DNA from: Bacteroidales bacterium UBA1458
Lineage (GTDB): Bacteria; Bacteroidota; Bacteroidia; Bacteroidales; VadinHA17
Assembly (NCBI GenBank): GCA_002325785.1
Contig: DCSU01000174.1
Span: 9,514-49,010, forward strand
Reading direction: 5' to 3'
DNA: 39,497 nucleotides
A program made the position numbers and the translations under genes. Of the stretch, positions 11,419 through 30,411 are shown one piece after another; position 1 is the first letter of the stretch; the number at the start of each line of letters is the position of its first letter. A model generated the notes under the pieces. It was given only the letters and a program-made list of their open reading frames with translations. It searched no databases and had not been told where the DNA came from.

Positions 11419-11419
11419 T

Positions 11420-12886
11420 ATGAAAAACAGGAAACTCTTTTTGTCACTTATCCTTCTTGCATCCATGCTTCAGCTTGCGGCAAAGGATTACAATGCATCA
11501 ATGTTCGGAGTCAGATCGAACGGTACCACCCTCAATACAAATTCCATACAGAGGGGGATTGACTATATCAGTGAGAACGGTGGTGGGCGCCTGGTCTTTT
11601 ATGTAGGCAGGTACCTTACGGGAACCATCTACCTGAAATCGAATGTTACCATTCATCTTGAGGAGGGTGCGATACTCGTCGGTTCAACCACTCCGTTCGA
11701 TTATGAGAGGAATTATAACTGGACCGCGCTCATCTTTGCGCTTGACCAGAAAAATATCGGGATCACCGGCAAGGGTGTTATTGACGGTCAGGGGTTCCAG
11801 GTGGCATATAACCTTGTTGATTTGATTCACAAAGGGGTGGTTAAGGACCCCCTGAAGTATGACCGGCCCAGCGAGACAATCCGCCCCCAGAATATTTATT
11901 TCAGGGGCTGCAGTAACATAGTGATCAGTGGCATAATACTCAGGGATCCGGGTAGCTGGAACCAGCAGTATGATCAGTGCCGTAACCTTGTCATTGACAA
12001 CATCACGGTCGACAGTAAATCATACTGGAATAATGACGGAGTGGATATTGTTGATTGTGACAGCGTGGTTGTCTCGAATTCATACTTTGATGCAGCCGAT
12101 GACGGTATTTGCCTGAAGTCGCACAGTGCCGACTTCGTTTGCCAGAATGTCTGGATTCGCAACAACACCGTCAGAACAAGCGCCAACGGCATCAAGTTCG
12201 GCACGGTGGGGCACGGCGGTTTTCGTAACATAAGCATCATCAACAACCTGGTGTTTGACACATACAGATCGGCAATCACCTTTGCCGCCGTTGACGGGGG
12301 CTTTGTCGAGAATATAGTAGTCGACAGTCTCCGGTCACTCAACACCGGCAATGTTATCTTCCTGAGGATAGGAGAACGGCGGGCAGGAAAAAAAGGAAGG
12401 ATGAACGGCGTGACAATCTCAAATGTATACGCAGAAGTGCCGGCTACCAAACCTGATGCCGGATATAATTATGAGGGCCCCGTTGAGGACCTGCCACGCA
12501 ACATTTCACCTTCGTCAATAGTTGGAATGCCTGATGCCATGATCGAGAACATTACGTTGAAAAACATTGAGATACATTATCCCGGGGGAGGAAACCCGCA
12601 TTATGCAAAGGTCGGGCTTGACGAGCTTGACAAGTTGCCGGAGATGGGTGCAAGTTACCCTGAGTTCTCAATGTTCAGGGAATTGCCGGCATGGGGATTT
12701 TATATAAGGCATGCCAGGGGAATTACCTTCGAAAATGTCAGGCTGTTATGTGACAAAAAGGATTACAGGACTGCGGTGGTTCTTGACGACGCACACGGAG
12801 TCACCTTCAGGAATCTTAAGGTGACGGAACCGGGCGGCAGGAAGGAGCCTGTATTTCATTTCAGATCCACGGCTATTGACCTGTAG
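11420..12886 (+). CDS. glycoside hydrolase family 28 (polygalacturonase / rhamnogalacturonase-like, beta-helix)
   Basis: Signal peptide, then GH28 catalytic motifs NNDGVDI, AADDGICLKS, G-H-G-G and NGIKFGT. The repetitive beta-helix pattern is visible. Confidence 0.87.
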   Translation: MKNRKLFLSLILLASMLQLAAKDYNASMFGVRSNGTTLNTNSIQRGIDYISENGGGRLVFYVGRYLTGTIYLKSNVTIHLEEGAILVGSTTPFDYERNYNWTALIFALDQKNIGITGKGVIDGQGFQVAYNLVDLIHKGVVKDPLKYDRPSETIRPQNIYFRGCSNIVISGIILRDPGSWNQQYDQCRNLVIDNITVDSKSYWNNDGVDIVDCDSVVVSNSYFDAADDGICLKSHSADFVCQNVWIRNNTVRTSANGIKFGTVGHGGFRNISIINNLVFDTYRSAITFAAVDGGFVENIVVDSLRSLNTGNVIFLRIGERRAGKKGRMNGVTISNVYAEVPATKPDAGYNYEGPVEDLPRNISPSSIVGMPDAMIENITLKNIEIHYPGGGNPHYAKVGLDELDKLPEMGASYPEFSMFRELPAWGFYIRHARGITFENVRLLCDKKDYRTAVVLDDAHGVTFRNLKVTEPGGRKEPVFHFRSTAIDL

Positions 12887-12924
12887 AGGCAGGGTAAGGG
12901 CCTGCCTCCGGGGTGCCCCCGGGG
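12886..12924. terminator. two adjacent GC-rich hairpins between convergent genes (possible bidirectional terminator)
   Basis: GAGGCAGG(12886-12893)/CCTGCCTC(12901-12908) and CCGGGG(12908-12913)/CCCCGG(12917-12922). There is no clear U-tract. Confidence 0.35.
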
Positions 12925-12972: not shown

Positions 12973-13662
12973 TTATCCCAGATCGGATATCCGGCTAAGC
13001 AGGGCAGCGTCAATTATTGTTACATCACGTCCCTGAATTCTTATTATACCTTCATTTTTAAGTTCAGTCAGAAGCCTGACAGTGTTTTCCTCCGAGATGG
13101 CTGACATCTCTCCGAGCTCTTTCCTGGTCACGGGCAGGGTGAAGCTGTTATTGCCATAAAATGCAGCCAGTGATAAAAGGCTCTCCGCAATTCGCCCCCT
13201 GATGTTTTTTTGATTGAGGCATATGATCTTTTTCATTATCAGGGCTACAGATTTACCGAAGGCCTTGTTGAGCCTGAGGAGCACTTCATGGTTTTCGAGG
13301 TACAGCTCTTTCAGGGATTCGAGCTTAACCATACACACCTGTGAATCTTCAATGGCCGTCACAGAATAAGTATAATGGATGCTTTCAAAAAATGAAAGCA
13401 AGCCTATGTAGGCTGGTGGTCTCATAAGGTACAGGATGATGTTGTGACCATTAATCCCTTCAATGTATAGTTTTGCCGTTCCCGAAGTCAGGTAAATGGC
13501 ATGACTGACGTTGTCACCCTGTCGGCAAATCATCTCGTGCTTCCGAAACCTTGCCCGGATAATGTTTGATTCGGGGAAGACTCTGCCAGACTTCCTGAAG
13601 GCATCATAGAGATCACACTTGTTTCTGCAAGCCTCACAAGGCATTTTACCGGTAATTCTCAT
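12973..13662 (-). CDS. Crp/Fnr-family transcriptional regulator with FNR-like N-terminal Cys cluster
   Basis: cNMP-binding-type beta-roll (ICRQGD...YLTSGTAKLY) and a C-terminal HTH (TRKELGEMSAISEENTVRLLTELK). N-terminal C-x2-C-x3-C (PCEACRNKC) plus a later Cys (QVCMV). ATG at 13662 is preferred over the TTG at 13671. Confidence 0.85.
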   Translation of the reverse strand: MRITGKMPCEACRNKCDLYDAFRKSGRVFPESNIIRARFRKHEMICRQGDNVSHAIYLTSGTAKLYIEGINGHNIILYLMRPPAYIGLLSFFESIHYTYSVTAIEDSQVCMVKLESLKELYLENHEVLLRLNKAFGKSVALIMKKIICLNQKNIRGRIAESLLSLAAFYGNNSFTLPVTRKELGEMSAISEENTVRLLTELKNEGIIRIQGRDVTIIDAALLSRISDLG

Positions 13663-13765
13663 TTTCAGCAAGTTATATTGTAGAAATTTAGATTAATCCA
13701 TCTGAACGTCATTGATAATGCCGGCTTAAGGCCTATAAATAACCAGTTATCATTTTCAAATATAG

Positions 13766-13779
13766 TTGATTTAAAACAA
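13766..13779. promoter_or_regulatory. FNR/CRP-like half-palindrome TTGAT-TTAA-AACAA
   Basis: 9 of 10 half-site positions match the enterobacterial FNR box TTGAT-N4-ATCAA (I have not checked the box preference of Bacteroidota Crp/Fnr regulators). It lies in the divergent intergenic region, centred about 97 bp upstream of the 13870 ATG. Confidence 0.3.
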
Positions 13780-13869
13780 TGTTACATTGCAAGGTTATGC
13801 CAGGATGTACATCTTTCAAAATCTCTATTTTAGCTAATCTTAAACGGATTACCAAACACCCGAAAATCT

Positions 13870-14640
13870 ATGGAATCAAGCGACCAGTACAATTTCAGTA
13901 TTTTCACTCCCCGCAATTTGCACGGAAAGAAGAACAGGAATGTAATCTTTACCATGCTTGCCATCTGGGTGGTGGCAGTTTTCGGCTTCCAGTTCCTTCT
14001 GAGGGCTATTGAGAAGCCAACTCCCGAAAAGGCTCTGACGATATTTGAAACAGAGTGGTCCGGCATTGCCTCAGGGAATGAGGATGGGGCAGATTACCGG
14101 GCTCTTCTCAATTCACTTCTCATGGTTAAGGGGAAGCTCACCGTTGCTGCAAGTGACCGGGAACTCCTCTCTGAGGCAATAAGTACCGTCACATTCCGGA
14201 TGGTACCTGACTCCCTGAGACCTCTTGTAATGGAGAAGGTTGCGGAGCTTGAGATAATGCATGCAGATATTGCCGGCCTGAAGGGTCAGCTGTATATGGA
14301 CCTTAAATTCCGTATACAGGATGCCAGCAAAAACCTGATCACTATTCTTGAACCCCATACCGGATATGGAGCAACAAGCCTGGAGGCGTCACTACTTGCT
14401 GCCAGCCTGAAAAAGGACTACCCTGTTTCATTAATGGAACCATCCCTGGCCCGCCTGCCTGACCTGATGAAATTGTATCTCACGCATAACCAGTCGGTAC
14501 TTACTGATACAAAATTCCTCGGGTTTCCTTTTCACTATTTCTATACTGCCGTCTTTCTGCTGGTACTTTTCGTGGTGCTTTGCATAGCTTATAATATTCT
14601 GATAGAATGGCGCTTAAAAAATGAAGGCATTGTTGAATAA
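13870..14640 (+). CDS. putative solute:sodium symporter small subunit (DUF4212-like) carrying a ~165-aa insertion between its two TM helices
   Basis: N-terminal KNRNVIFTMLAIWVVAVFGFQFLL and C-terminal FLGFPFHYFYTAVFLLVLFVVLCIAYNILIEW resemble the two helices of the ~80-aa DUF4212/TIGR03647 family. The gene sits 6 nt upstream of the large subunit. Confidence 0.62.
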   Translation: MESSDQYNFSIFTPRNLHGKKNRNVIFTMLAIWVVAVFGFQFLLRAIEKPTPEKALTIFETEWSGIASGNEDGADYRALLNSLLMVKGKLTVAASDRELLSEAISTVTFRMVPDSLRPLVMEKVAELEIMHADIAGLKGQLYMDLKFRIQDASKNLITILEPHTGYGATSLEASLLAASLKKDYPVSLMEPSLARLPDLMKLYLTHNQSVLTDTKFLGFPFHYFYTAVFLLVLFVVLCIAYNILIEWRLKNEGIVE

Positions 14641-14646
14641 TTTAAT

Positions 14647-16338
14647 ATGCAGAGATACATGAAAAAGTTATACGTCACCTTTATTATGCTCCTGGCGGGA
14701 GCAATCTCATTAAATGCGCAGAATCTGACTCAGCTGGAAGGAAGTTTCAAGACCGGACCGGCGATAATACTGATCGCTACTCTGGTTACATTTGTATTGG
14801 TCGGGATATTTTTCCGCGCAAAGGATCCGGCTGACTATTATGCTGCCGGGAGGAGCATATCCAAGGTAGGATCGGGCATGGCCATCGCCTCCAACTGGAT
14901 GAGTGCAGCCTCGGTGCTGGGCATGGCAGGCATGATGTACGGGTTCGGTTATAACGGTCTGGCTTATGTTGTCGGCTGGACGGGAGGCTATGTTCTCCTT
15001 CTGATACTGATGGCTGCCCAGATCAGGAAATATGGCAAATACACGGCACCTGACTTCATAGGGGACCGTTTCTACTCACGCGATCTCAGGATTGTAAGTG
15101 CAGTTTTTACTATTCTGATATCGTTTGCCTATTGCGTTGGACAGTTTGGAGGCATAGGATTGATGTTCAAGTGGATACTAGGGCTTAACTATACGTGGGC
15201 GGTAATAATCGGTTCATCTGTGGTTTTGCTCTATACCCTGATTTCAGGCATGATCGGAGCGACAAAGAACATGCAGATCCAGTATGTTATAATTGTGGTA
15301 TCATTCCTTATACCGGTTTTTATAATGGCATATAAGTTTGATTATTTCTGGCTTCTTCCTCAGATTGGTTACGGTGCCGCTGTAACTGACATTGTGCAAG
15401 GAATTCCAGCACCAAATATTTCTGACGGTGCTGCCCTGCTCAATGCATACGGTCATGACCTTTCGATCGTGCCCAGTCCGGAATTTGCCATGCCATGGGA
15501 TCCCTCAACCGGTACAACCTTCTTCCAGTGGGTTGCTATTTGTTTTTCACTGATGGTTGGTACGGCAGGGCTGCCCCACGTGATCCAGCGCTTCTATGTT
15601 GTGCCGAAAGTAACAGATGCCAGATGGTCAGTTGTATGGGGTCTCTTCTTCATATGTCTCGTTTATTGGTCTGCTCCGGCATATGCAACTTTCGGGAAGC
15701 TGCTCTCCTCAAATCCTGAGGTGGGTGTACTTGCCAAGGATGCAATTGTAGTTTACACGGCTCAGTTGGGAGGGGTCAACTCACTTGTTGTAGGTCTGCT
15801 GGCAGCGGGTGCCATCTCTGCGGCTTTCTCTACGGTCGCGGGTTTGCTGGTCGCTGGAGCGTCAGCTTTCTCGCATGATCTCTATGTTAAGGTCATCAAT
15901 CCGGCCTCAACCCCGAAACAACAGTTGAGAATTGCCCGTTTAGGCACTGTTCTCATGGCAGTGCTGGTGACAATAGTGGCACTCATGAAGCTTGGACTGA
16001 TTGCACAGCTTGTCTCTGTCGCGTTTTCAATGGCAGCATGCACCATATTTCCGCTGTTCCTTCTTGGAATCTGGTGGAGTGGTTCTAACAGGGCCGGTGC
16101 AAAAGCAGGACTGTTCGCAGGAATCCTTGTTACTGTTATATCACTGACCTATTTCATCGTTAATCTTAGCGGAGGCGCTCTTCCGGGGCAGGCCTTTATT
16201 TCATACTGGCTTAATGTATGGTATTTCGCATGGTTTGGAGCTCCGCTGGCGATTGCGGTTAATATTGTTGTCTCTCTGCTTACAAAACCGACTCCTCTCG
16301 AGATTAAGAAATTTCTTGCGGAACAGGTTCATAACTGA
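14647..16338 (+). CDS. sodium:solute symporter family transporter, ActP / VC_2705-like large subunit
   Basis: SSS motifs (DYYAAGRSIS, AIASNWMSAASVLGMAG, GLPHVIQRFY). An ActP-like cleavable-looking N-terminal signal segment (LLAGAISLNAQ). 563 aa and polytopic. Confidence 0.9.
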   Translation: MQRYMKKLYVTFIMLLAGAISLNAQNLTQLEGSFKTGPAIILIATLVTFVLVGIFFRAKDPADYYAAGRSISKVGSGMAIASNWMSAASVLGMAGMMYGFGYNGLAYVVGWTGGYVLLLILMAAQIRKYGKYTAPDFIGDRFYSRDLRIVSAVFTILISFAYCVGQFGGIGLMFKWILGLNYTWAVIIGSSVVLLYTLISGMIGATKNMQIQYVIIVVSFLIPVFIMAYKFDYFWLLPQIGYGAAVTDIVQGIPAPNISDGAALLNAYGHDLSIVPSPEFAMPWDPSTGTTFFQWVAICFSLMVGTAGLPHVIQRFYVVPKVTDARWSVVWGLFFICLVYWSAPAYATFGKLLSSNPEVGVLAKDAIVVYTAQLGGVNSLVVGLLAAGAISAAFSTVAGLLVAGASAFSHDLYVKVINPASTPKQQLRIARLGTVLMAVLVTIVALMKLGLIAQLVSVAFSMAACTIFPLFLLGIWWSGSNRAGAKAGLFAGILVTVISLTYFIVNLSGGALPGQAFISYWLNVWYFAWFGAPLAIAVNIVVSLLTKPTPLEIKKFLAEQVHN

Positions 16339-17123
16339 TGAGTCTTAAAGACCTGATTGTTATATCACCCGGTACGAAGAAGTTACTGGCAATCACTCTT
16401 TCGGTAACATCGCTGGCAGTGACCTTTGCTTTTTTCTATTACAGAGGAGTCAACAGGTCGGAAGACCCGCGCGTAACTGAGGCCCGGGGGTTAATGGCTG
16501 AATATGACCGGGTGTCAGGTGGAAAGAACAGCTATGCCTCGTTTTATCTACTTGATTCTGCAGGCGGGATTTACATGAGGGTACCAGGTTACGAGTCTTC
16601 GTGGGAGAGAGGTGTCATCTATAACAACAAGTGCAGTGGCCTTCTACTGATGGCCTTGTATGACAGCACTGTAACCGCATCTGAGAAGAACACGCTTCTT
16701 GATCTCTCCATCAGCTACTGTGACAGTAGTATAACGGTATATACCGGTTGGCTTGATGAATGGGAAGATCTGTCTGAAGAGGTCGTATCACAGCGTCTGC
16801 TTCCATCAATGAATGTGAAGGATCCTGCATTTGCGGGGCTTAACTTTAACAGAATCTTCAGGAAAAGGGTCAGGGATGTCATGCTTGCCCGGATTGAAAC
16901 ACCCAGAAGGCTCTCTGTCAGCTATACCAATAAGGCCACTGCATACCGTCACCTGATGAGGCAGGATTCAGCGCTGGTTTATTATGAAAAGGCTCTCACA
17001 TTGTGGAAGGAAAACCGCACAGCAGAGAGCAACCTGAGTGTGCTTCTTGGAGGTGAGCCTCTGAAAACGGGAATCATTGAATCTTTGTTTCCCCCGGACA
17101 GGAAGAAGGCAAGTAAAAATTGA
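16338..17123 (+). CDS. hypothetical single-pass membrane protein with TPR-like C-terminal helices
   Basis: The ATG overlaps the symporter stop (TGATG, 1-nt overlap). One TM helix (LLAITLSVTSLAVTFAFFYY). C-terminal YTNKATAYRHLMRQDSALVYYEKALTLW looks TPR-like. No other family recognised. Confidence 0.6.
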   Translation: MSLKDLIVISPGTKKLLAITLSVTSLAVTFAFFYYRGVNRSEDPRVTEARGLMAEYDRVSGGKNSYASFYLLDSAGGIYMRVPGYESSWERGVIYNNKCSGLLLMALYDSTVTASEKNTLLDLSISYCDSSITVYTGWLDEWEDLSEEVVSQRLLPSMNVKDPAFAGLNFNRIFRKRVRDVMLARIETPRRLSVSYTNKATAYRHLMRQDSALVYYEKALTLWKENRTAESNLSVLLGGEPLKTGIIESLFPPDRKKASKN

Positions 17124-17174: not shown

Positions 17175-18413
17175 ATGAAAAGAGCAGCTGTAATAATTGC
17201 AAGTCTGATTTTGCTCGGGCCACAGCTTGTGGCACAGGATGATGGTCAGAACTGGGGGATAAAACTATCAGGTTATGTTAAGACTGATATTTTTTACGAT
17301 ACCAGGCAGTCATCTGCCTCCAACGGCTTGCGTGAAGGACACTTTTATCTGTTTCCCGATGACGTCTTGTATGATGAGGAGATGAATGACCTGAATGCCA
17401 ACCCATCTTTTCATATTCTTAACATACAGACAAGGGTGAGAGGTGACATCACTGGTCCTGATGCCTTTGGTGCAAAGACCTCGGGAGCAATTGAGGCTGA
17501 GTTTTTTGGCACTGGTGAGAGTGATCTCAACGGGTTCAGGCTTCGTCATGCATATGTAAAGATGGACTGGACCAGGGTGACCCTGATTGCAGGTCAATAC
17601 TGGCATCCGATGTTTCCGGCAGAAAATTTTCCGGGTACCATTAGCTTCAATACCGGTGCTCCTTTTCTTCCTTTCAGTCGTAATCCGCAGGTCAGGTTTG
17701 TTTACTCACCGGGCAAGTTCAGCGTAACCATGGTTGCATATTCACAGCGCGACTTTTCATCGGGGGGACCCGATGGCAACAGCAGCAAATACATCCGAAA
17801 CAGCGGAATACCGGGATTACATTTTCAGGTAAAGGCACCCGCAGGTGAGAATCTGACAGCCTGGGGAGGTATAGATTTTAAGGTTATCAGGCCTGAGATC
17901 AGGACAACAGCGAACATTGAAACTGATGCCACCGTGAGCAGTATGGCCGCTTTTGCCACTCTTAAACTTAAAACAAAGCCGTTAAACTTTTCTGTAATGG
18001 GCGTTTATGGTGAGAATGCAAGTGATATGATGATGATCGGAGGATATGCGGTTTCTGGCATTACAGACCCGGTTGACCAGATCAGGGAGTGGACCACAAT
18101 GAATAACGCCGGATTTTGGATTGATCTGAGCACCAACGGCAAGAAGGCTGTTTTTGGTCTCTTCAGCGGCTACAGCAAAAACCTTGGTTCAAGGGAGTTG
18201 GTTGAGGGGTCTGTTTACGCCAGGGGCAGCAACATTGATCATCTATTCAGAGTATCTCCGAGGTTATCCGTAACGGAGGGTAAACTGAGTATTGCAGCAG
18301 AGATAGAAACGACCCTGGCTGCTTACGGCACAATGCAGTCTGACGGCAGGGTGACGGATACCCATGATGTTACCAATGTGCGTATGCTGCTCAGTATGAT
18401 CTATCGCTTTTAA
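17175..18413 (+). CDS. outer-membrane beta-barrel protein (putative porin)
   Basis: Signal peptide (IIASLILLGPQLVAQ), alternating amphipathic beta-strand pattern, a LRHAYVKMDW...AGQYWHP porin-like segment, and a C-terminal aromatic residue (..MIYRF). Confidence 0.7.
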   Translation: MKRAAVIIASLILLGPQLVAQDDGQNWGIKLSGYVKTDIFYDTRQSSASNGLREGHFYLFPDDVLYDEEMNDLNANPSFHILNIQTRVRGDITGPDAFGAKTSGAIEAEFFGTGESDLNGFRLRHAYVKMDWTRVTLIAGQYWHPMFPAENFPGTISFNTGAPFLPFSRNPQVRFVYSPGKFSVTMVAYSQRDFSSGGPDGNSSKYIRNSGIPGLHFQVKAPAGENLTAWGGIDFKVIRPEIRTTANIETDATVSSMAAFATLKLKTKPLNFSVMGVYGENASDMMMIGGYAVSGITDPVDQIREWTTMNNAGFWIDLSTNGKKAVFGLFSGYSKNLGSRELVEGSVYARGSNIDHLFRVSPRLSVTEGKLSIAAEIETTLAAYGTMQSDGRVTDTHDVTNVRMLLSMIYRF

Positions 18414-21268
18414 ATTGTTACGGTGTGAAAATCATTGCCAGCCTTCAGCATCAGATTATTTATTTCTTCAATCGCACCTGCGGCAAGTAATTGCATATCG
18501 GCGTATCTTACCTTAAAATCGACCCTGTTATCCGGCTCCCTGCCGGTGCTTATGCATGATGCCTGATGCGAGAGGCGTATAAATGCAAGGTCTTTCCATG
18601 CCCTCAGGGCATTGCGGAGCAGCTGGTGGCTGATATGTTTTCCTGAATGCAATTCAAGGATTCTGTCTACTGTTGACAATCCGTCAAGCCCGTGTTTCAG
18701 GGCATAGAGGCGGATAACCCCTGTTAGCGCCATGAGGATTCTCTTGATATCCGTCGTCTCCTCTGTGAGGGCCGCCCGGGAGGGATTGAATTGTTTCAAT
18801 GCCATCGACATATGGTAGAAGAAGATGTCACTTGTCCGGAGGCTGGTTTTTACATATTCTCTAAGCTCATTGCAGAGTGAGTCATCTCCGTAACATGGTC
18901 TGAAGTCGAAGAAAATGCTTATATCCAGGATCTCCGAGGGGCCAGGGATTCTTATCCAGTCTGAAAAATAGCCCTTCCATTTATCAAGAGGCTGGCACCA
19001 TTTCGGATTCCCGGCCATGTTATTACCCTTGCAGAGACGAAAGCCGATCTGGTCAAGCAGTTCATTTACTTTCTTCCCGAGTGCCAGGAAATAATCTTCT
19101 GCCGCTTGCAGCTTCTCTCCTGCAAGGTTTTCAAAAATGATGGCGTTATCCTGGTCTGTCAGAAAGCTTTGCTCTCTTCGTCCCGCACTGCCTGTCTGGA
19201 TGAATGAAAAACGGCAAGGAGGCGCTCCGGCATCCTCTATGCATAAATCGATAACCCTCTTGCATACTGCATCGGCGACTGAGGAGATGTGAAGGGAGAT
19301 CGCATATGGGTCTGAATGGCCGGCAATCATTGACAGTGAGGCCTTATGGCTGTTCTGCCATATCTTTTTAAGGCTGTTAACCGAGCTGGCCGCAGCAATA
19401 TCATTTAAGATCAACTCATGGGTCATTGCGGAGGCATGGGCTAACTCATCATTGGTAATAACACCTGCAAGCCTGTTTTCTGACGACATAACGAGGAGGC
19501 ATCCGGAACTGTTCCTGATCCTGTCTATAGCTACAGTGATCTTTGCATCTTCTCTGACAAAGGATGGTGGCGCATGCATGAATCTGAAGATCTCAGCGGT
19601 GGCCGAATCTCCTTCCGCCATTCCGAATCCGATACTGCCTGCATCGGCCACACCCATTGGTTCCCCGGTACTGTTCAGAACAACCATCACCCTGGTATTA
19701 TTCTCTTTCATCAATGCAACTGCCCTTGAGATAGTTGTATTTTCAGGGCATGTAACCGGGGGCTTCATAATTGCTGACACCGGTGCATCCTGTATATACG
19801 GAGCACCATAGGTCTCATATCCGGCTGCAGGAATGCCAGAGGCAGAGAGCGGAGCCGAAAGCAGCTCAATACTTCCGTCACACCATATTTCACCGGTTCC
19901 GGAGTCAATAACCAATATCGTTAATAATACCGCTATCTCATTACCGTCTTTTCTCCTGAGAATAACATTCTGGTTGTCAAGGCCATTCATTGTTTCAATC
20001 ATTTGATAGACGTATTCATATTGATGAGGATCAGCAAACATTGCTTCGAAGTGATGCAGTTGCAATTCCTGGATGTTTGAATAGCCCAGCAAGTTTAAGA
20101 CCGGAGCAGTGGCGTGAATGAATCTTGGTTTTATACCATAGGTTAAACGGAAAAAACCTGTTCCCGTATTCTCAAGGAGCGATATAGGGAGGTTTATTCC
20201 GGATGTTGACGATAAGCTTCTGGCGGGACGGATAACGATTAGTACTGCATGATTGTCGCCCAGAGTGATCCGTGACAGATCGGCATGACATGCTATCTGT
20301 TTTCCGGTTCTTGTTTTCAGCATGCACTCGACAAATCGTCTGGCTGACAGTTCCTCATATAATTTCACCGGATCATATGGATCACTAATATTCTGTGAGC
20401 TCAGTATATCTGGCAAAGGCCGGTTCAGGATCTCTTCCTCGCTAAGTTCAATCCACGAAAGCAATGTCTTATTTGCCTGAATTCCCTGCCCTGACCATAT
20501 TATGACTCCCTCTGATGCTGCCTCTGCCAGTGTCCTGTAGAGCTCTCTCGATTTACGGAGTTCCTCTTCAGCCCTGCTTCTCTTCTGTTCTATTTTATGG
20601 CTTTGGCCTGATATGGCAAGCAGGAGACCAAAAATAAACAGGCCGAAAATTCCGGAAATTGCAAGTGTTCTGATCTCCATCCTGCGTATCTCCGTCCTGA
20701 CATCCTCCACATATATCCCTGTTCCTACGACCCATTCCCAGGGCTCAAACAGTCTTACATAGGACAATTTCGGAACTATACGGGTAGAATCATCATTCCA
20801 TTGCCACATATACTCAACATAACTCTCACCGTCATCAGCCACGGCTTTCACAAATTCGACAAAAATTGCCTTACCCTTTGAATCATAAAAGCAGGAGAGA
20901 TCCTGTCCGTTGAGGTCAGGTCTGTATGGATGGGTTATCATCACCGGAACCTTGTCTGTAATCCAGAAATAATCCTTAAGGTCATGCCCGTACCTGATGG
21001 TTGTGACAGCTGCCCCGGCCTGTTTCTGAGCCTCGGGTTTTTCAAGGTCACCGTTTTGCTCCAGCGTGTGGTAGTACTCAAGAAGGCTGTAGACTGATGC
21101 AGTCATTTCATGGATCAGGTTCCTCTTGCGGTCCATCATGACCTTTTCAAAGGCCGGTATCAGGTAGAGGAATATCATTCCCGCAAAAAGTATAATGGCC
21201 AGCAGGGCAGGCAGGTCAATCTTCAGCAGAAACAGCTTTTTTTTACCTTTTGGAGCTCGCTCTTTCAT
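18410..21268 (-). CDS. membrane sensor protein: TM - Cache - TM - PAS - PAS - CBS pair - DUF294 nucleotidyltransferase - DUF294_C
   Basis: TM helices at aa 19-40 and 201-220 flank a Cache-like domain (DYFWITDKVPVMITHPYRPDLNGQDL ... KLSYVRLFEPWEWVVGTGIYVED). PAS-like segments at aa ~240-470. Two CBS repeats at aa ~497-612. NTase motif FIQTGSAGRREQSFLTDQDNAIIF (G-S ... D-x-D, nt 19148-19192). Helical C-terminal region typical of DUF294_C. Confidence 0.85.
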   Translation of the reverse strand: MKERAPKGKKKLFLLKIDLPALLAIILFAGMIFLYLIPAFEKVMMDRKRNLIHEMTASVYSLLEYYHTLEQNGDLEKPEAQKQAGAAVTTIRYGHDLKDYFWITDKVPVMITHPYRPDLNGQDLSCFYDSKGKAIFVEFVKAVADDGESYVEYMWQWNDDSTRIVPKLSYVRLFEPWEWVVGTGIYVEDVRTEIRRMEIRTLAISGIFGLFIFGLLLAISGQSHKIEQKRSRAEEELRKSRELYRTLAEAASEGVIIWSGQGIQANKTLLSWIELSEEEILNRPLPDILSSQNISDPYDPVKLYEELSARRFVECMLKTRTGKQIACHADLSRITLGDNHAVLIVIRPARSLSSTSGINLPISLLENTGTGFFRLTYGIKPRFIHATAPVLNLLGYSNIQELQLHHFEAMFADPHQYEYVYQMIETMNGLDNQNVILRRKDGNEIAVLLTILVIDSGTGEIWCDGSIELLSAPLSASGIPAAGYETYGAPYIQDAPVSAIMKPPVTCPENTTISRAVALMKENNTRVMVVLNSTGEPMGVADAGSIGFGMAEGDSATAEIFRFMHAPPSFVREDAKITVAIDRIRNSSGCLLVMSSENRLAGVITNDELAHASAMTHELILNDIAAASSVNSLKKIWQNSHKASLSMIAGHSDPYAISLHISSVADAVCKRVIDLCIEDAGAPPCRFSFIQTGSAGRREQSFLTDQDNAIIFENLAGEKLQAAEDYFLALGKKVNELLDQIGFRLCKGNNMAGNPKWCQPLDKWKGYFSDWIRIPGPSEILDISIFFDFRPCYGDDSLCNELREYVKTSLRTSDIFFYHMSMALKQFNPSRAALTEETTDIKRILMALTGVIRLYALKHGLDGLSTVDRILELHSGKHISHQLLRNALRAWKDLAFIRLSHQASCISTGREPDNRVDFKVRYADMQLLAAGAIEEINNLMLKAGNDFHTVTI

Positions 21269-21273
21269 AATAT

Positions 21274-21279
21274 CCTCCT
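21274..21279 (-). promoter_or_regulatory. Shine-Dalgarno-like AGGAGG 5 nt upstream of the sensor-NTase ATG
   Basis: The minus strand reads ...ATT ACT TAGGAGGATATT ATG AAA GAG. The AGGAGG overlaps the TAG stop of the upstream metallophosphoesterase gene. Confidence 0.4.
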
Positions 21280-22048
21280 AAGTAATTTTTTCATGTTTCA
21301 GATATAGCATTCCTGTGTCCGTATCCAGGACAGAAAATGACGTTCTTCCGTTACCTCCCGTGAGAGGGGGCAATAAGATCATCGTCATTTCATGTCCGAG
21401 AAAGATTCTGTCGTTGGGGACAGGATGAACAGCCCGCAGGAAAGGTATTGGCCCATGGTGCGAGAAGTATGCAACCGGTTTGTGCGAATGGCCTGAAAAG
21501 GAAAACATAATTTTGTGATGGCTCATGAATTTCCACAGTTCTTTCAGGTGCCGGTGCTTCTCAATATAGAGGGTGGTTGAGCCTGTGAAGTCAGGGCAGA
21601 CATAGTGTGAAAGAAGGAGAGTTGCCTTGATCTCAGATAGAATGACATATTCGGGAATAGTATTCAGATATGATATTTCCTCCTCCCCCAGATCATTTGG
21701 GTCTTCCCCTTCAAATGACCAGACCAGGCCCTTTGAAGCGCCTCTTCTGGCTGAAGGTGCCATCTGAAACCATTGTTCCGGGTAGTTGTAGCCGTTTGAC
21801 CAGGAGGGGAGCCTGTTTGCCGCAAAAAGGTCATGATTCCCGGCAACCACCCACCTGCAGTTTGATCTTATGAGCGAAATGCATTGACTGGCGCTTTTGA
21901 TGAAGTGGTAATTATAGAACCTGCGGTCATACCCTGTTATGTCACCCAGGCAGGCAAGCTCATCACATCCACTGGCCTCTGCAAGCTTAAGGACGGCCTC
22001 AAGCATTGTTACATTTTCATGGATATCAGTTATGATTCCCAGCTTCAT
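21278..22048 (-). CDS. metallophosphoesterase (calcineurin-like phosphoesterase)
   Basis: Ordered MPE motifs: DIH (GIITDIHEN), GD (CLGDITG), GNHD (VAGNHD) and GHSH (FSGHSH). ATG MKLGII at 22048 is preferred over the GTG at 22132. Confidence 0.85.
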   Translation of the reverse strand: MKLGIITDIHENVTMLEAVLKLAEASGCDELACLGDITGYDRRFYNYHFIKSASQCISLIRSNCRWVVAGNHDLFAANRLPSWSNGYNYPEQWFQMAPSARRGASKGLVWSFEGEDPNDLGEEEISYLNTIPEYVILSEIKATLLLSHYVCPDFTGSTTLYIEKHRHLKELWKFMSHHKIMFSFSGHSHKPVAYFSHHGPIPFLRAVHPVPNDRIFLGHEMTMILLPPLTGGNGRTSFSVLDTDTGMLYLKHEKIT

Positions 22049-29016: not shown

Positions 29017-30411
29017 ATGGATTCAAGATCAAAGGATCAGCTGCTCAAACGCATAGCCAGGCTTGCCCGTCAGAATAAAGAGCTTGAGGAGCAGGTTAAG
29101 AAGCTTGAGCGGGAGAAGGGGAAGATTCTGGAAATGAACGAGAGATACAGGCTTCTGCTTGAACGGAATGAACTACCGGGAGCAAAAACCGCTGAGGAAG
29201 AGAAGTCGGCCAGATACAACATGGTCACGGTGCTGTTCGCCGATATCCACGGTTTCTCAAAACTTGTGGAAGACATGGATTCTACAAGGATAATGGATGA
29301 ACTTGATGAGATTTTTCTGGAATTCGATAAAATAATCGGGAAATATCATGTTGAGAAAATAAGGTCAATCGGTGACACACTGATGTGTGCCGGGGGGATA
29401 CCATCGAAGAATATAACTAACCCGGTGGAGGTTGTTATGGCCGCGGTGGAGCTCAGACACTTCCTGAAGAATTATGAGTCAGGGAAGAGAGCCGATGACA
29501 GGATATGGAATCTGAAGACAGGTATCCATACGGGCCCGGTAACTGCCTCCTTGTCAGGCAAAAACAAGGTCTCGTACGACATCAAGGGTCGTGCGGTAAA
29601 TACGGCAAGCCGTATCGAGAACGTCTCGGATAAGGACTCAATCCTGATCTCGGTTATGACCTACGAACTGGTCAAGGAATTTTTCCATTGTGAGTATTTC
29701 GGGAAACTGCCCGTGAAATATACAGGCAGCATTCAGATGTACCGGGTTAAAGGTCTGCTTCCGGAGTTATCTGTTGATGGCCGCGGATTCATACCCAATG
29801 ATGCGTTCAAAATCAAATTCGGATTAATCCAGTTCACTGATATACAAGAGATTATATTGGATAAGCTTGAGCGGGAATTGCCCGAGTTTCTCTTTTATCA
29901 TAATGTCAAGCACACGGTTGATGTGGTTACGGAGGTTGAGCTAATCGGATGGGCAGAAGGATGCAATGACGAGGAGATACTTCTGCTGAAGACTGCTGCT
30001 CTCTTCCATGATGCGGGGCATTCTGTCTCGTATGATGATCATGAATATCAGGGTACGCTTCTGGCCCGGGAGATGCTGCCCGGTTACGGCTATTCCGGTA
30101 AGCAGATTGACAGGATTTGCAGTATTATCATGTCAACCAAGCTGCCTCCCCGGCCTGCCGACCTGCTTGAACAGATCATCTGTGACTCCGATCTCGATTA
30201 CCTTGGCAGAAGTGATTTTATTCCTGTTTCAAATACCCTTTTTGAGGAGTTGAAGGCGCAGAACAAGATCACAAAACTGAACGACTGGAACAAGATGCAG
30301 GTGAAATTCATCTCGGGTCACCAGTATTTCACTGCCACTGCCCGCAGTCTCAGGGAGGTGAACAAGAAGCTGCAGATTGAGAGGATACAGAGTCTGATCA
30401 CCGAAGAGTGA
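29017..30411 (+). CDS. class III adenylate/guanylate cyclase fused to an intact HD phosphohydrolase domain (soluble, N-terminal coiled coil)
   Basis: Coiled coil at aa 8-50. Cyclase motifs VTVLFADIHGFS, IRSIGDTLMCAGG and YDIKGRAVNTASRIE. HD domain motifs YHNVKHTVDV ... ALFHDAGHS ... ICDSDLDYLG. Confidence 0.88.
   Translation: MDSRSKDQLLKRIARLARQNKELEEQVKKLEREKGKILEMNERYRLLLERNELPGAKTAEEEKSARYNMVTVLFADIHGFSKLVEDMDSTRIMDELDEIFLEFDKIIGKYHVEKIRSIGDTLMCAGGIPSKNITNPVEVVMAAVELRHFLKNYESGKRADDRIWNLKTGIHTGPVTASLSGKNKVSYDIKGRAVNTASRIENVSDKDSILISVMTYELVKEFFHCEYFGKLPVKYTGSIQMYRVKGLLPELSVDGRGFIPNDAFKIKFGLIQFTDIQEIILDKLERELPEFLFYHNVKHTVDVVTEVELIGWAEGCNDEEILLLKTAALFHDAGHSVSYDDHEYQGTLLAREMLPGYGYSGKQIDRICSIIMSTKLPPRPADLLEQIICDSDLDYLGRSDFIPVSNTLFEELKAQNKITKLNDWNKMQVKFISGHQYFTATARSLREVNKKLQIERIQSLITEE

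What the first reader, a model, noticed from the sequence alone, without database searches (positions are those of the whole stretch)
18410..21268. Atypical DUF294 protein: extracytoplasmic Cache sensor and tandem PAS domains fused to a CBS-nucleotidyltransferase output
Seen: two TM helices (aa 19-40 and 201-220) enclose a ~155-aa Cache-like domain (nt ~20699-21136). After them come two PAS-like segments (nt ~19859-20551) and a CBS pair (nt ~19433-19780). Next is a polymerase-beta-type NTase core with G693-S694 and D705-x-D707 (nt 19148-19192), then a helical DUF294_C-like tail.

Established: the usual DUF294 architecture I recall is soluble, cNMP-binding + CBS pair + DUF294 + DUF294_C. Its fold is related to the GlnD/GlnE-type protein nucleotidyltransferases.

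Inference: here an NTase, rather than a kinase, cyclase or GGDEF domain, would be the output of a transmembrane one-component sensor. It would integrate a periplasmic ligand (Cache), a cytoplasmic redox or ligand cue (PAS) and adenylate energy charge (CBS). A membrane-anchored, ligand-gated protein- or small-molecule-nucleotidylating sensor would be a new signalling output class.
Basis: partly seen in the sequence, partly recalled or inferred. Interest (0 to 1): 0.75.

Follow-up and report, generated by a model that had tools for sequence, protein, structure and literature searches.

The report
Membrane acetate-type sensor with nucleotidyltransferase output
This gene encodes a membrane receptor that probably detects small organic acids such as acetate outside the cell and signals through a GlnE/DrrA-like nucleotidyltransferase; it belongs to a large, widespread family that nobody has studied and that sits next to acetate-type transporters.

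Summary
ORF 18410-21268(-) encodes TM–sCache_2–TM–PAS–PAS–CBS pair–DUF294 NTase–DUF294_C, with G693-S694 and D705-x-D707 intact.

The architecture is not atypical. 96 of the 149 nearest 50%-identity clusters share it, and the 80 best genome loci carry labels from more than ten lineages.

New findings:
- **Cache pocket:** it has all seven ligand-contact residues of the acetate/propionate/pyruvate sensor PscD, and they are invariant family-wide.
- **Neighbouring transporter:** the gene lies beside an ActP/MctC/VC_2705-type monocarboxylate symporter in 61 of 79 loci. In the window this is a DUF4212–SSS–TPR–outer-membrane-barrel operon behind a conserved FNR box.
- **Phosphoesterase partner:** the NTase is paired with a phosphoesterase that is swapped between lineages. 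In the window it is a Metallophos at 21278-22048. Elsewhere it is another Metallophos subfamily or a PHP, and PHP or a DEDDh exonuclease is sometimes fused to the sensor. The classical soluble cNMP-type has a separate DEDDh exonuclease.
- **Fold:** the NTase module significantly matches only DrrA and GlnE, which are protein adenylyltransferases.

Best reading: a short-chain-carboxylate receptor that controls monocarboxylate uptake through reversible, GlnD-like nucleotidylylation, with the phosphoesterase as eraser. The substrate is unknown. I rate it a new variant of a known but uncharacterised kind.

The parts
18410..21268 (-). Sensor nucleotidyltransferase, 952 aa: TM–sCache_2–TM–PAS–PAS–CBS pair–DUF294–DUF294_C
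   Evidence: ORF; Pfam; AF2 model; 120 or more full-length homologues
21149..21220 (-). TM helix 1 (aa ~17-40), preceded by a basic cytoplasmic N-terminus
   Evidence: Hydropathy and K/R count
20681..21139 (-). Periplasmic sCache_2 domain (aa 44-196) with a C2/C3-carboxylate pocket: Y100 W102 H113 F136 Y153 W155 K167
   Evidence: Pfam 4.9e-35. PDB 4k08 at 2.6e-32 and 5g4y at 1.7e-31. Foldseek TM 0.89-0.90. PscD contact residues from PMC5062169. Invariant in A1 and A2
20606..20674 (-). TM helix 2 (aa ~199-221), continuing into a long cytoplasmic linker helix
   Evidence: Hydropathy; AF2 helix 187-249
20225..20509 (-). PAS domain 1 (aa 254-348)
   Evidence: Pfam PAS_9 255-345; AF2; Foldseek hits to PpsR and DosP
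19862..20161 (-). PAS domain 2 (aa 370-469), poorly conserved
   Evidence: AF2 fold; few invariant columns
19433..19780 (-). CBS pair (aa 497-612)
   Evidence: Pfam CBS x2; Foldseek hits to ST2348, MJ0922 and CorC CBS
18941..19339 (-). DUF294 NTase core (aa 644-776). The G693-S694…D705-x-D707 motif is at nt 19148-19192. The candidate third carboxylate D788 is at 18905-18907, just beyond the Pfam boundary
   Evidence: Pfam 4e-39; motif positions; invariance; DrrA/GlnE fold
18515..18769 (-). DUF294_C helical substrate-binding-type tail (aa 834-918; helices run to ~948)
   Evidence: Pfam 1.2e-15; AF2. Placed with GlnD/GlnE C-terminal domains in PMC3710099
21278..22048 (-). Partner metallophosphoesterase (Metallophos, 256 aa counted from the internal ATG). 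Its stop is 10 nt before the sensor's start, so the two are a likely operon. Proposed eraser/hydrolase
   Evidence: Pfam Metallophos 3.3e-11. Motifs DIH, GD, GNHD and GHSH are present. The same gene is immediately upstream in 42 of 79 related loci. Homologues are 255-256 aa
13870..14640 (+). Symporter small subunit (DUF4212/TIGR03647) with an extra N-terminal TM and a ~165-aa insert
   Evidence: Pfam and NCBIfam; TM analysis; conserved in the cassette
14647..16338 (+). VC_2705-family Na+/solute symporter. Its nearest named relatives are the MctC and ActP monocarboxylate/acetate symporters
   Evidence: TIGR03648 at 502 bits against a cutoff of 321; MctC at 8.6e-61. An SSS lies beside the sensor in 61 of 79 loci. 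All ten sampled were ActP/MctC-like
16338..17123 (+). Membrane-anchored TPR protein of the transporter operon
   Evidence: Pfam TPR_1; one TM at aa 15-35; conserved in the clade
17175..18413 (+). Predicted outer-membrane beta-barrel (signal peptide; C-terminal …IYRF). No Pfam, NCBIfam or PDB match
   Evidence: Sequence; no family hits; homologue present in 40 of 79 loci
12973..13662 (-). FNR-like Crp/Fnr regulator, divergent from the transporter operon. It has conserved Cys: C9-x2-C12-x3-C16, C46 and C110
   Evidence: Pfam cNMP_binding + HTH_Crp_2; Cys conserved in 23-24 of 26 homologues
13766..13779 (.). FNR-type box TTGATTTAAAACAA, about 104 bp upstream of the small-subunit start codon
   Evidence: Palindrome. 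The same offset occurs in the related loci of the close clade. 13 of 19 intergenic regions have a box with at most 1 mismatch, against a background of 0.088 per kb

Best explanation
The protein is a transmembrane one-component receptor for extracellular C2/C3 monocarboxylates such as acetate, propionate, pyruvate, lactate or glycolate. It controls the neighbouring monocarboxylate uptake system.

Proposed mechanism:
1. Ligand binds the periplasmic sCache_2 domain.
2. The signal passes through TM2, a long helix, two PAS domains and a CBS pair to a C-terminal GlnE/DrrA-type nucleotidyltransferase.
3. That domain most likely attaches an NMP (AMP or UMP) to a protein target.
4. The co-transcribed metallophosphoesterase removes the NMP again.

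Together the two proteins would form a GlnD-like writer/eraser switch that sets the activity or expression of the DUF4212–SSS symporter and its outer-membrane channel.

Shown here:
- the architecture and topology
- the identity of the carboxylate pocket to PscD
- the intact catalytic motif
- the DrrA/GlnE fold
- the conserved linkage to a phosphoesterase and to ActP/MctC-type symporters

Inferred:
- that the NTase is active and ligand-regulated
- that its substrate is a protein
- that the phosphoesterase reverses the reaction
- that the transporter system is the target

Approximate confidence by layer:
- carboxylate sensor tied to the symporter: 0.8
- NTase/phosphoesterase antagonism: 0.6
- protein substrate: 0.4
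For: **Ligand.** The Cache domain matches Adeh_3718 (4k08) and PscD (5g4y) at E about 1e-32 and TM 0.9. All seven PscD propionate contacts (PMC5062169) are identical here and invariant across A1 and A2.

**Linkage to the transporter.**
- An SSS lies within 6 kb in 61 of 79 loci, and in 39 of 44 loci with full flanks.
- The cassette is kept where the outer flanks differ.
- All ten sampled symporters from ten lineages are ActP/MctC-type.
- Price et al. (10.1101/072470) report cofitness of DUF4212/SSS genes with a nearby COG2905 gene during lactate or D-alanine use.

**Writer/eraser pair.**
- A phosphoesterase is adjacent or fused in 63-65 of 79 Cache-type loci. The types are Metallophos A, B and C, PHP separate, PHP fused (7 loci) and RNase_T fused (1 locus).
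- 13 of 15 representatives longer than 1000 aa carry an N-terminal PHP.
- The canonical cNMP-type has a DEDDh exonuclease adjacent in at least 57 of 77 loci.

**Chemistry.** The NTase-only model (pLDDT 86) matches only DrrA and both GlnE domains at E about 1e-7 and TM 0.64-0.68. No cGAS, OAS, poly(A) polymerase or CCA-adding enzyme scores significantly. G-x11-D-x-D and D788 are invariant.
Against: - No biochemical data exist for any DUF294 protein in the searchable literature.
- No candidate substrate was identified.
- The partner phosphoesterase families (DEDDh exonuclease, PHP, Metallophos) are best known for cutting nucleic acids or nucleotides, not protein-NMP bonds. That fits the rivals as well.
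- Similarity to DrrA and GlnE is at fold level only, at 12-15% identity. The Pfam GlnE hit is insignificant (E 0.12).
- About 10 fully flanked loci show no recognisable phosphoesterase.
- 18 of 79 loci show no nearby SSS, though many of these are truncated contigs.
- The transporter promoter carries an FNR-type box, so transcription may be controlled independently of the NTase.
Confidence: 0.5

Rival explanations
1. The NTase synthesises a free nucleotide signal, either a linear or cyclic oligonucleotide or another nucleotide derivative. The partner phosphoesterase degrades it, as in GGDEF/EAL or cyclase/CpdA pairs. A receptor such as a cNMP-binding domain or an RNA leader then switches the transporter on.
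For: - The partner families are all typical nucleotide or oligonucleotide hydrolases: DEDDh/RNase_T, PHP, Metallophos, and in one locus a GAF–HD_5 (HD-GYP-like) protein.
- Canonical family members carry a cNMP-binding domain.
- An orphan 'TIGR03647 riboswitch candidate' with unknown ligand sits directly upstream of this transporter's small-subunit gene in 770 cases (PMC6429828).
Against: - The fold search finds no cGAS, OAS or CD-NTase-like match. Only protein adenylyltransferases pass the threshold.
- The adjacent regulator in this clade is FNR-like, with conserved Fe-S-type cysteines and an FNR box, so it is not an obvious nucleotide receptor.
- No Rfam RNA was found in the window cassette or in 16 canonical loci. 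I do not know whether Rfam 15 holds that motif.
Confidence: 0.15
2. The NTase adds untemplated nucleotides to an RNA 3' end, for example on the transporter mRNA or a small RNA, and the partner nuclease trims them. Control of the symporter would then be post-transcriptional.
For: - Pol-beta-type NTases include RNA tailing enzymes.
- The canonical partner is an RNase_T-type 3'-5' exonuclease.
- Price et al. speculated that the COG2905 gene is needed for expression of the symporter.
- A conserved RNA leader exists upstream of many such transporters.
Against: - TUTase and CCA-adding enzymes score only E 0.4-0.5 at low probability.
- The C-terminal domain is the GlnE/KNTase_C type, not a poly(A)-polymerase RNA-binding domain.
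- No RNA motif was detected in the window.
Confidence: 0.1
3. The NTase-like module is a non-catalytic nucleotide-binding or scaffolding domain. The protein regulates the symporter by direct protein-protein contact, and the Metallophos neighbour is unrelated.
For: Pseudo-NTases do occur. The soluble cNMP-type paralogue in L047 lacks the D-x-D motif (sequence).
Against: - G-S, R697, E699, D705, Q706, D707 and D788 are invariant down to about 30% identity.
- Phosphoesterase partners are repeatedly replaced and even fused. That is hard to explain without shared chemistry.
Confidence: 0.07
4. The enzyme nucleotidylates a small molecule in the manner of kanamycin/aminoglycoside NTases, for example a metabolite derived from the imported carboxylate.
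For: DUF294_C lies in the KNTase_C clan. ANT(4')/KNTase structures are the next-best fold hits.
Against: Those hits are five orders of magnitude weaker, at TM about 0.3. The sensor architecture and transporter linkage point to regulation, not metabolism.
Confidence: 0.05

Closest known systems
Soluble cNMP-binding–CBS–DUF294–DUF294_C proteins (the JGI name 'signal-transduction protein with cAMP-binding, CBS, and nucleotidyltransferase domain'; COG2905 from memory)
   Same: Both have the same CBS–NTase–helical-tail output module, with the GS…DxD and FFDFR motifs. Both are often found beside SSS symporters. Both are paired with a phosphoesterase gene.
   Different: The sensor is TM–Cache–TM–PAS–PAS in place of a cytoplasmic cNMP-binding domain. 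The partner is a Metallophos (or a PHP elsewhere) in place of the DEDDh exonuclease, which is adjacent in 57 of 77 canonical loci against 2 of 79 Cache-type loci.
sCache_2 C2/C3-carboxylate chemoreceptor sensor domains: PscD (5g4y/5g4z), Adeh_3718 (4k08) and McpP
   Same: 36-38% identity, TM 0.9, and identical ligand-contact residues. The sensor is flanked by two TM helices.
   Different: The output is an NTase, not an MCP signalling domain. Ligand binding here is predicted, not measured.
GlnE (glutamine synthetase adenylyltransferase) and the Legionella DrrA/SidM AMPylation domain
   Same: These are the best and only significant fold matches over the whole NTase plus helical tail (about 340-390 columns, TM 0.64-0.68). 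They share the G-x11-D-x-D motif; that GlnE and DrrA have this signature is from memory.
   Different: There is no significant sequence-family membership (GlnE Pfam E 0.12). Identity is 12-15%, the substrate is unknown, and the module is fused to a membrane sensor.
GlnD (PII uridylyltransferase/UMP-removing enzyme), as I recall its organisation
   Same: The logic is the same: a ligand-regulated NTase writer coupled to a metal-dependent phosphohydrolase eraser. In the PHP- and exonuclease-fused relatives the two sit in one polypeptide. GlnD's system ultimately governs a transporter, through PII and AmtB.
   Different: The eraser is a Metallophos, PHP or DEDDh enzyme, not an HD domain. The sensors are Cache, PAS and CBS, not ACT. 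No PII-like substrate was identified. This is an analogy only.
MctS/MctR and CrbS/CrbR (MxtR/ErdR)-type two-component control of monocarboxylate/acetate permeases
   Same: Both couple monocarboxylate availability to the expression or function of an SSS-family permease. The MctS sensor region resembles this Cache domain (NCBIfam 1.8e-20). The ActP cluster PA3232-PA3235 is induced on acetate and propionate.
   Different: There is no histidine kinase or response regulator here. The output is an NTase.

Membership tests
DUF294 signal-transduction nucleotidyltransferases (PF03445 + PF10335) | PF03445 and PF10335 hits above gathering scores | tested here: met
   134.1 bits against a cutoff of 21, and 58.1 against 22.5
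DUF294 signal-transduction nucleotidyltransferases (PF03445 + PF10335) | CBS pair immediately upstream of the NTase | tested here: met
   CBS x2 at aa 497-612; AF2 and Foldseek
DUF294 signal-transduction nucleotidyltransferases (PF03445 + PF10335) | Intact pol-beta-type catalytic motif (G-S…D-x-D plus a downstream acidic residue) | tested here: met
   G693 S694 D705 D707 D788 are invariant
DUF294 signal-transduction nucleotidyltransferases (PF03445 + PF10335) | N-terminal cNMP-binding domain (canonical architecture) | tested here: not met
   No cNMP_binding hit; TM–sCache_2–TM–PAS–PAS instead
DUF294 signal-transduction nucleotidyltransferases (PF03445 + PF10335) | Adjacent DEDDh/RNase_T exonuclease gene (canonical context) | tested here: not met
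   The window has a Metallophos instead. An exonuclease is adjacent in 57 of 77 canonical loci and 2 of 79 Cache-type loci
sCache_2 C2/C3-carboxylate sensors (PscD/McpP/Adeh_3718 type) | sCache_2 fold between two TM helices, facing outside | tested here: met
sCache_2 C2/C3-carboxylate sensors (PscD/McpP/Adeh_3718 type) | Seven ligand-contact residues: Tyr90, Trp92, His103, Phe126, Tyr143, Trp145 and Lys156 of PscD | tested here: met
   Y100 W102 H113 F136 Y153 W155 K167, mapped through the HMMER alignment onto the residues listed in PMC5062169
sCache_2 C2/C3-carboxylate sensors (PscD/McpP/Adeh_3718 type) | Measured binding of acetate, propionate or pyruvate | not testable with these tools
   Needs ITC or thermal shift on aa 41-198
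GlnE/DrrA-type protein adenylyltransferases | NTase core plus helical C-terminal domain with the same fold | tested here: met
   6yx5_B, 1v4a and 3k7d at E 2.4e-7 to 1.1e-6, TM 0.64-0.68. These are the only hits at E<=1e-3
GlnE/DrrA-type protein adenylyltransferases | Sequence-family membership (Pfam GlnE PF03710 or NCBIfam GlnE) | tested here: not met
   E 0.12, 12.1 bits against a cutoff of 24; PRK14109 at E 0.014
GlnE/DrrA-type protein adenylyltransferases | Transfers AMP to a Tyr, Ser or Thr of a defined protein substrate | not testable with these tools
   Needs radiolabel or mass-spectrometry assays
cGAS/DncV-like (CD-NTase) or OAS nucleotide-signal synthases | CD-NTase/OAS fold | tested here: not met
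   No such structure appears among the listed Foldseek PDB hits. No PADLOC hit
VC_2705-family Na+/solute symporter with small subunit (the neighbouring genes) | TIGR03648 and TIGR03647 above their cutoffs, with the genes adjacent | tested here: met
   502.3 bits against 320.75, and 33.1 against 26.05; genes at 13870-14640 and 14647-16338
FNR-type regulators (the neighbouring gene) | Crp/Fnr fold with a conserved cysteine cluster, and a TTGAT-N4-ATCAA operator in the target promoter | tested here: met
   Pfam; 5 Cys conserved in 23-24 of 26 homologues; box conserved at a fixed offset. Fe-S binding itself was not tested

The most novel reading that the evidence does not exclude
DUF294 enzymes make a so-far unknown nucleotide-derived signal in response to extracellular short-chain carboxylates. 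The interchangeable partner hydrolases (DEDDh exonuclease, PHP, Metallophos) destroy it. In many bacteria its receptor would be the orphan 'TIGR03647' RNA leader that sits in front of the same transporter, or the cNMP-binding domain of canonical family members. That would amount to a new second-messenger pathway and would give an orphan riboswitch candidate its ligand.
Probability: 0.12. Interest if true: 0.9.

Novelty: new variant of a known kind. Interest (0 to 1): 0.6.

Why it matters
Short-chain carboxylates such as acetate, propionate and lactate are the main currency of anaerobic microbial communities. How Bacteroidota, Ignavibacteriota and many other anaerobes sense them is largely unknown.

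This family could be a widespread sensing route whose output chemistry has never been studied: a GlnE/DrrA-like nucleotidyltransferase opposed by a phosphoesterase. If the model holds, it would be a membrane receptor that signals by reversible protein nucleotidylylation. It would also give a function to DUF294, DUF294_C and their long-noted exonuclease partner.

The comparative data provide concrete, testable predictions about the ligand, the catalytic residues, the eraser and the physiological target.

Tried and rejected
- **Literature on 'DUF294'.** Most hits were prefix matches to DUF2946. A whole-word search gave 3 papers, none functional.
- **Locus-tag searches.** They found only that the P. 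aeruginosa PA3232-PA3235 cluster around ActP is induced on acetate and propionate. I did not verify that PA3233 is a DUF294 protein. The Pseudomonas loci I fetched (L134, L145, L150) showed the DUF294–exonuclease pair without a nearby SSS, so I do not lean on that memory.
- **PDB sequence search with the NTase half.** Only spurious WD-repeat hits came back.
- **PDB sequence search with the neighbours.** The Metallophos gave only weak hits to 3rqz and 3qfm. The 412-aa protein gave nothing.
- **Rfam.** There was nothing in the cassette and only tRNAs in 16 canonical loci. This does not settle the TIGR03647-RNA lead, because I cannot confirm that the motif is in Rfam 15.
- **Anti-phage defence reading.** There were no PADLOC hits. 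The NCBIfam DS11 hit covers only the CBS region and is far below its cutoff. Rejected.
- **'Adjacent Crp is a receptor for an NTase-made cyclic nucleotide'.** This is weakened by conserved FNR-type cysteines and an FNR box.
- **The count of 590 genome matches.** It rests on Cache-domain peptide patterns and may include other sCache_2 proteins. Only the 80 best loci, all full-length, were examined.

Full report
**1.

The window has a 952-codon ORF at 18410-21268 on the minus strand. Pfam finds the following domains, all above their gathering scores:

| Domain | Residues | E-value |
|---|---|---|
| sCache_2 | 44-196 | 4.9e-35 |
| PAS_9 | two stretches | 7.6e-11 |
| CBS | two, from aa 497 | 1e-14 |
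| DUF294 | 644-776 | 4e-39 |
| DUF294_C | 834-918 | 1.2e-15 |

- Hydropathy gives two membrane helices, at about aa 17-40 and 199-221. The N-terminus has 7 K/R in 18 residues. The expected topology is therefore N-in, with the Cache domain outside and the rest cytoplasmic.
- An AlphaFold2 model built on 33 homologues (mean pLDDT 78.9) shows the Cache fold, a long TM2/linker helix, two PAS folds (254-348 and 370-469), a CBS pair, the NTase core and a helical tail.

**2. The architecture is common, not atypical**

- In the 5.8-billion-protein search, the top 120 clusters are about 950 aa long, 51-100% identical and carry the same Pfam set. The only names attached are generic ones, and where a taxon is given it is a Bacteroidales MAG.
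- I searched the 50%-identity representative library with the CBS–NTase half. It gave 3321 representatives at E<=1e-3 and 828 at E<=1e-30.
- Of the 149 nearest representatives, 96 have a homologous Cache domain upstream. They come in three versions:
  - one PAS domain, about 820-850 aa
  - two PAS domains, about 950-975 aa
  - N-terminally extended, about 1070-1240 aa
- Soluble PAS–CBS–DUF294 and cNMP–CBS–DUF294 proteins are also present.
- In species-representative genomes, the 80 best loci are all full-length. Their labels include Bacteroidota, Ignavibacteriota, Chlorobiaceae, Elusimicrobia, delta-proteobacterial and Myxococcales groups, Gemmatimonadetes, NC10, Chloroflexota, Aminicenantes and Sumerlaeota.
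- The catalytic residues stay invariant at about 30% identity: G693, S694, R697, E699, D705, Q706, D707 and D788.
- PAS2 and the CBS pair have very few conserved positions.

**3. What the Cache domain senses**

- The domain matches the periplasmic sensors Adeh_3718 (4k08, E 2.6e-32) and PscD (5g4y, E 1.7e-31) by sequence.
- It also matches them by structure, at TM 0.89-0.90 and 36-38% identity.
- PscD binds glycolate, acetate, propionate and pyruvate. In the crystal structure propionate contacts Tyr90, Trp92, His103, Phe126, Tyr143, Trp145 and Lys156. The same residues occur in McpP and Adeh_3718 (PMC5062169).
- Through the HMMER alignment these map to Y100, W102, H113, F136, Y153, W155 and K167 here. 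All seven are identical to PscD and invariant across both family alignments.
- The ligand is therefore very probably a C2/C3 monocarboxylate.

**4. Gene context**

The window's cassette runs as follows:

| Coordinates | Strand | Gene |
|---|---|---|
| 12973-13662 | - | Crp/Fnr regulator |
| 13870-14640 | + | DUF4212/TIGR03647 small subunit |
| 14647-16338 | + | VC_2705-family symporter (TIGR03648, 502 bits; next best MctC/ActP) |
| 16338-17123 | + | membrane-anchored TPR protein |
| 17175-18413 | + | 412-aa protein with a signal peptide and a C-terminal …IYRF, a likely outer-membrane barrel |
| 18410-21268 | - | the sensor, convergent with the transporter operon |
| 21278-22048 | - | Metallophos gene, 10 nt upstream of the sensor on the same strand |

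- The cassette is kept at 69%, 58% and 53% identity, even where the outer flanks differ.
- Across 79 Cache-type loci, an SSS gene lies within 6 kb in 61, and in 39 of the 44 loci with full flanks. A homologue of the 412-aa protein is present in 40.
- All ten symporters sampled from ten lineages have ActP or MctC as their best hit, at 400-740 bits.
- Price et al. found DUF4212/SSS genes necessary for lactate or D-alanine use. They were cofit with a nearby COG2905 gene, and the authors speculated that this gene is needed for symporter expression (10.1101/072470).

**5. The phosphoesterase partner**

A Metallophos gene of the window's type lies immediately upstream in 42 of 79 loci. Where it is missing, another phosphoesterase usually takes its place:

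- a second Metallophos subfamily, convergent and just downstream (10-12 loci)
- a third Metallophos subfamily, just downstream on the same strand (3 loci)
- a separate PHP protein (2 loci)
- a PHP domain fused to the N-terminus of the sensor (7 loci)
- an RNase_T-type exonuclease fused to the N-terminus (L051)

In total, 63-65 of 79 loci have such a partner. Of the 15 representatives longer than 1000 aa, 13 carry the PHP fusion and one carries the exonuclease fusion.

For comparison I fetched 80 loci of the canonical cNMP-type. A DEDDh exonuclease is directly adjacent in at least 57 of 77 of them, against 2 of 79 for the Cache type. An SSS lies within 5 kb in 27 of the 52 canonical loci with full flanks.

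The conserved unit is therefore NTase plus a phosphoesterase, and the phosphoesterase is replaced by unrelated families and sometimes fused. This argues that the two enzymes act on the same phosphodiester bond.

**6. What kind of NTase**

- No solved structure is detectable by sequence.
- An NTase-only model (aa 612-952; pLDDT 86.4, pTM 0.86) finds only four PDB chains at E<=1e-3:
  - the DrrA AMPylation domain (6yx5_B, TM 0.67-0.68 over 338 columns)
  - the N-terminal domain of GlnE (1v4a)
  - two chains of the C-terminal domain of GlnE (3k7d)
- Aminoglycoside NTases follow five orders of magnitude behind.
- cGAS/OAS-type, poly(A) and CCA-adding enzymes are not significant.
- The HEPN-superfamily survey had already grouped DUF294_C with the GlnD/GlnE C-terminal domains (PMC3710099).
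- The closest known chemistry is therefore protein adenylylation.

**7. Most likely mechanism**

- I read the gene as a receptor for extracellular acetate-type carboxylates. Its NTase output, opposed by the phosphoesterase, forms a GlnD-like writer/eraser switch governing the adjacent monocarboxylate uptake system.
- The sensing and linkage steps are well supported. Catalytic activity, a protein substrate, reversal by the phosphoesterase and the identity of the target are all inferred.
- The main rival is a nucleotide-messenger synthase/hydrolase pair. The partner hydrolase families favour it, and so does the orphan 'TIGR03647 riboswitch candidate' found upstream of this transporter's small subunit in 770 cases (PMC6429828). 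The fold result argues against it.
- I found no Rfam RNA in the window cassette or in 16 canonical loci, but I cannot say whether that motif is in Rfam 15.
- RNA tailing, a non-catalytic role and small-molecule modification are less likely.
- A defence-system reading is rejected.

**8. Transcriptional control of the transporter**

- The divergent promoter contains TTGATTTAAAACAA (13766-13779). This is one mismatch from the FNR consensus and lies about 104 bp before the small-subunit start codon.
- The box sits at the same offset in the related loci of the close clade. It occurs in 13 of 19 equivalent intergenic regions, against a background of 0.088 per kb.
- The adjacent regulator has five cysteines conserved in 23-24 of 26 homologues, which is FNR-like.
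- Transcription of the transporter operon is therefore probably tied to redox or anaerobiosis. This leaves room for the NTase to act post-translationally, and it weakens the idea that this regulator receives an NTase-made nucleotide.

**9. Novelty and verdict**

- In the searchable literature I found no paper that characterises any DUF294 protein.
- The window's gene is one ordinary member of a large family. The family itself is an undescribed transmembrane variant of the DUF294 signal-transduction NTases, with a predicted ligand, a swapped partner enzyme and a predicted physiological target.
- I rate it a new variant of a known (but uncharacterised) kind, with interest 0.6.

Noticed in passing
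window 12973-13662 (-) and 13766-13779: The Crp/Fnr-family regulator next to the transporter operon has FNR-like conserved cysteines (C9-x2-C12-x3-C16, C46, C110). An FNR-consensus box sits at a fixed offset upstream of the small-subunit gene in related loci. The monocarboxylate uptake operon is probably under redox or anaerobic control.
   Followed up: yes
window 13870-14640 (+): The symporter 'small subunit' is 256 aa, not the roughly 80-90 aa I recall as usual. It has an extra N-terminal TM helix (aa 24-48) and a ~165-aa soluble insert before the DUF4212 segment. The length is conserved at 256 aa in the clade. The function of the insert is unknown.
   Followed up: partly
window 17175-18413 (+): A 412-aa protein with a signal peptide and a C-terminal …MIYRF has no Pfam, NCBIfam or PDB match. 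It is likely an outer-membrane beta-barrel. Homologues follow ActP/MctC-type symporters in 40 of 79 loci across Bacteroidota, Ignavibacteriota, Chlorobiaceae and Elusimicrobia. It may be an unannotated carboxylate channel family.
   Followed up: partly
L030, L056, L058, L064, L067, L071, L073 (ORFs starting ~9170-9330) and L051:9287-12868: In other lineages the phosphoesterase is fused to the N-terminus of the Cache–DUF294 protein, giving single polypeptides of about 1190-1250 aa. The fused domain is PHP in seven loci and an RNase_T-type exonuclease in L051.
   Followed up: yes
L047:7449-9272 (+) and 9989-12889 (+): A Myxococcales MAG has a soluble cNMP–CBS–DUF294 gene directly upstream of a Cache-type one, followed by DUF485 (YjcH-like) and an ActP-like symporter. 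The soluble copy lacks the D-x-D motif (…GSEGRREAAWPPTRAGF…), so it may be a pseudo-enzyme.
   Followed up: partly
L077:8717-9889 (+): In a Desulfocapsaceae MAG, a GAF–HD_5 (HD-GYP-like) protein sits just upstream of the Cache–DUF294 gene, and no Metallophos or PHP is present. It may be yet another hydrolase partner, or it may be coincidence.
   Followed up: no
literature (PMC6429828); relevant to window 13672-13869: An orphan 'TIGR03647 riboswitch candidate' is reported immediately upstream of this transporter family's small-subunit gene in 770 cases. No Rfam hit was found at that position in the window, nor in 16 canonical DUF294 loci. I do not know whether Rfam 15 contains the motif.
   Followed up: partly
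window 29017-30411 (+): By synteny with L001 and L003 (same order and the same 464-aa length), this ORF is a class III nucleotide cyclase with a weak HD-domain hit, about 8 kb from the sensor. It is conserved only in the close clade and is absent from L004's neighbourhood, so it is probably unrelated. I did not scan it directly.
   Followed up: no
window 18410-18413: The stop codons of the convergent sensor gene and outer-membrane-barrel gene overlap by 4 nt, leaving no room for separate terminators between them.
   Followed up: no
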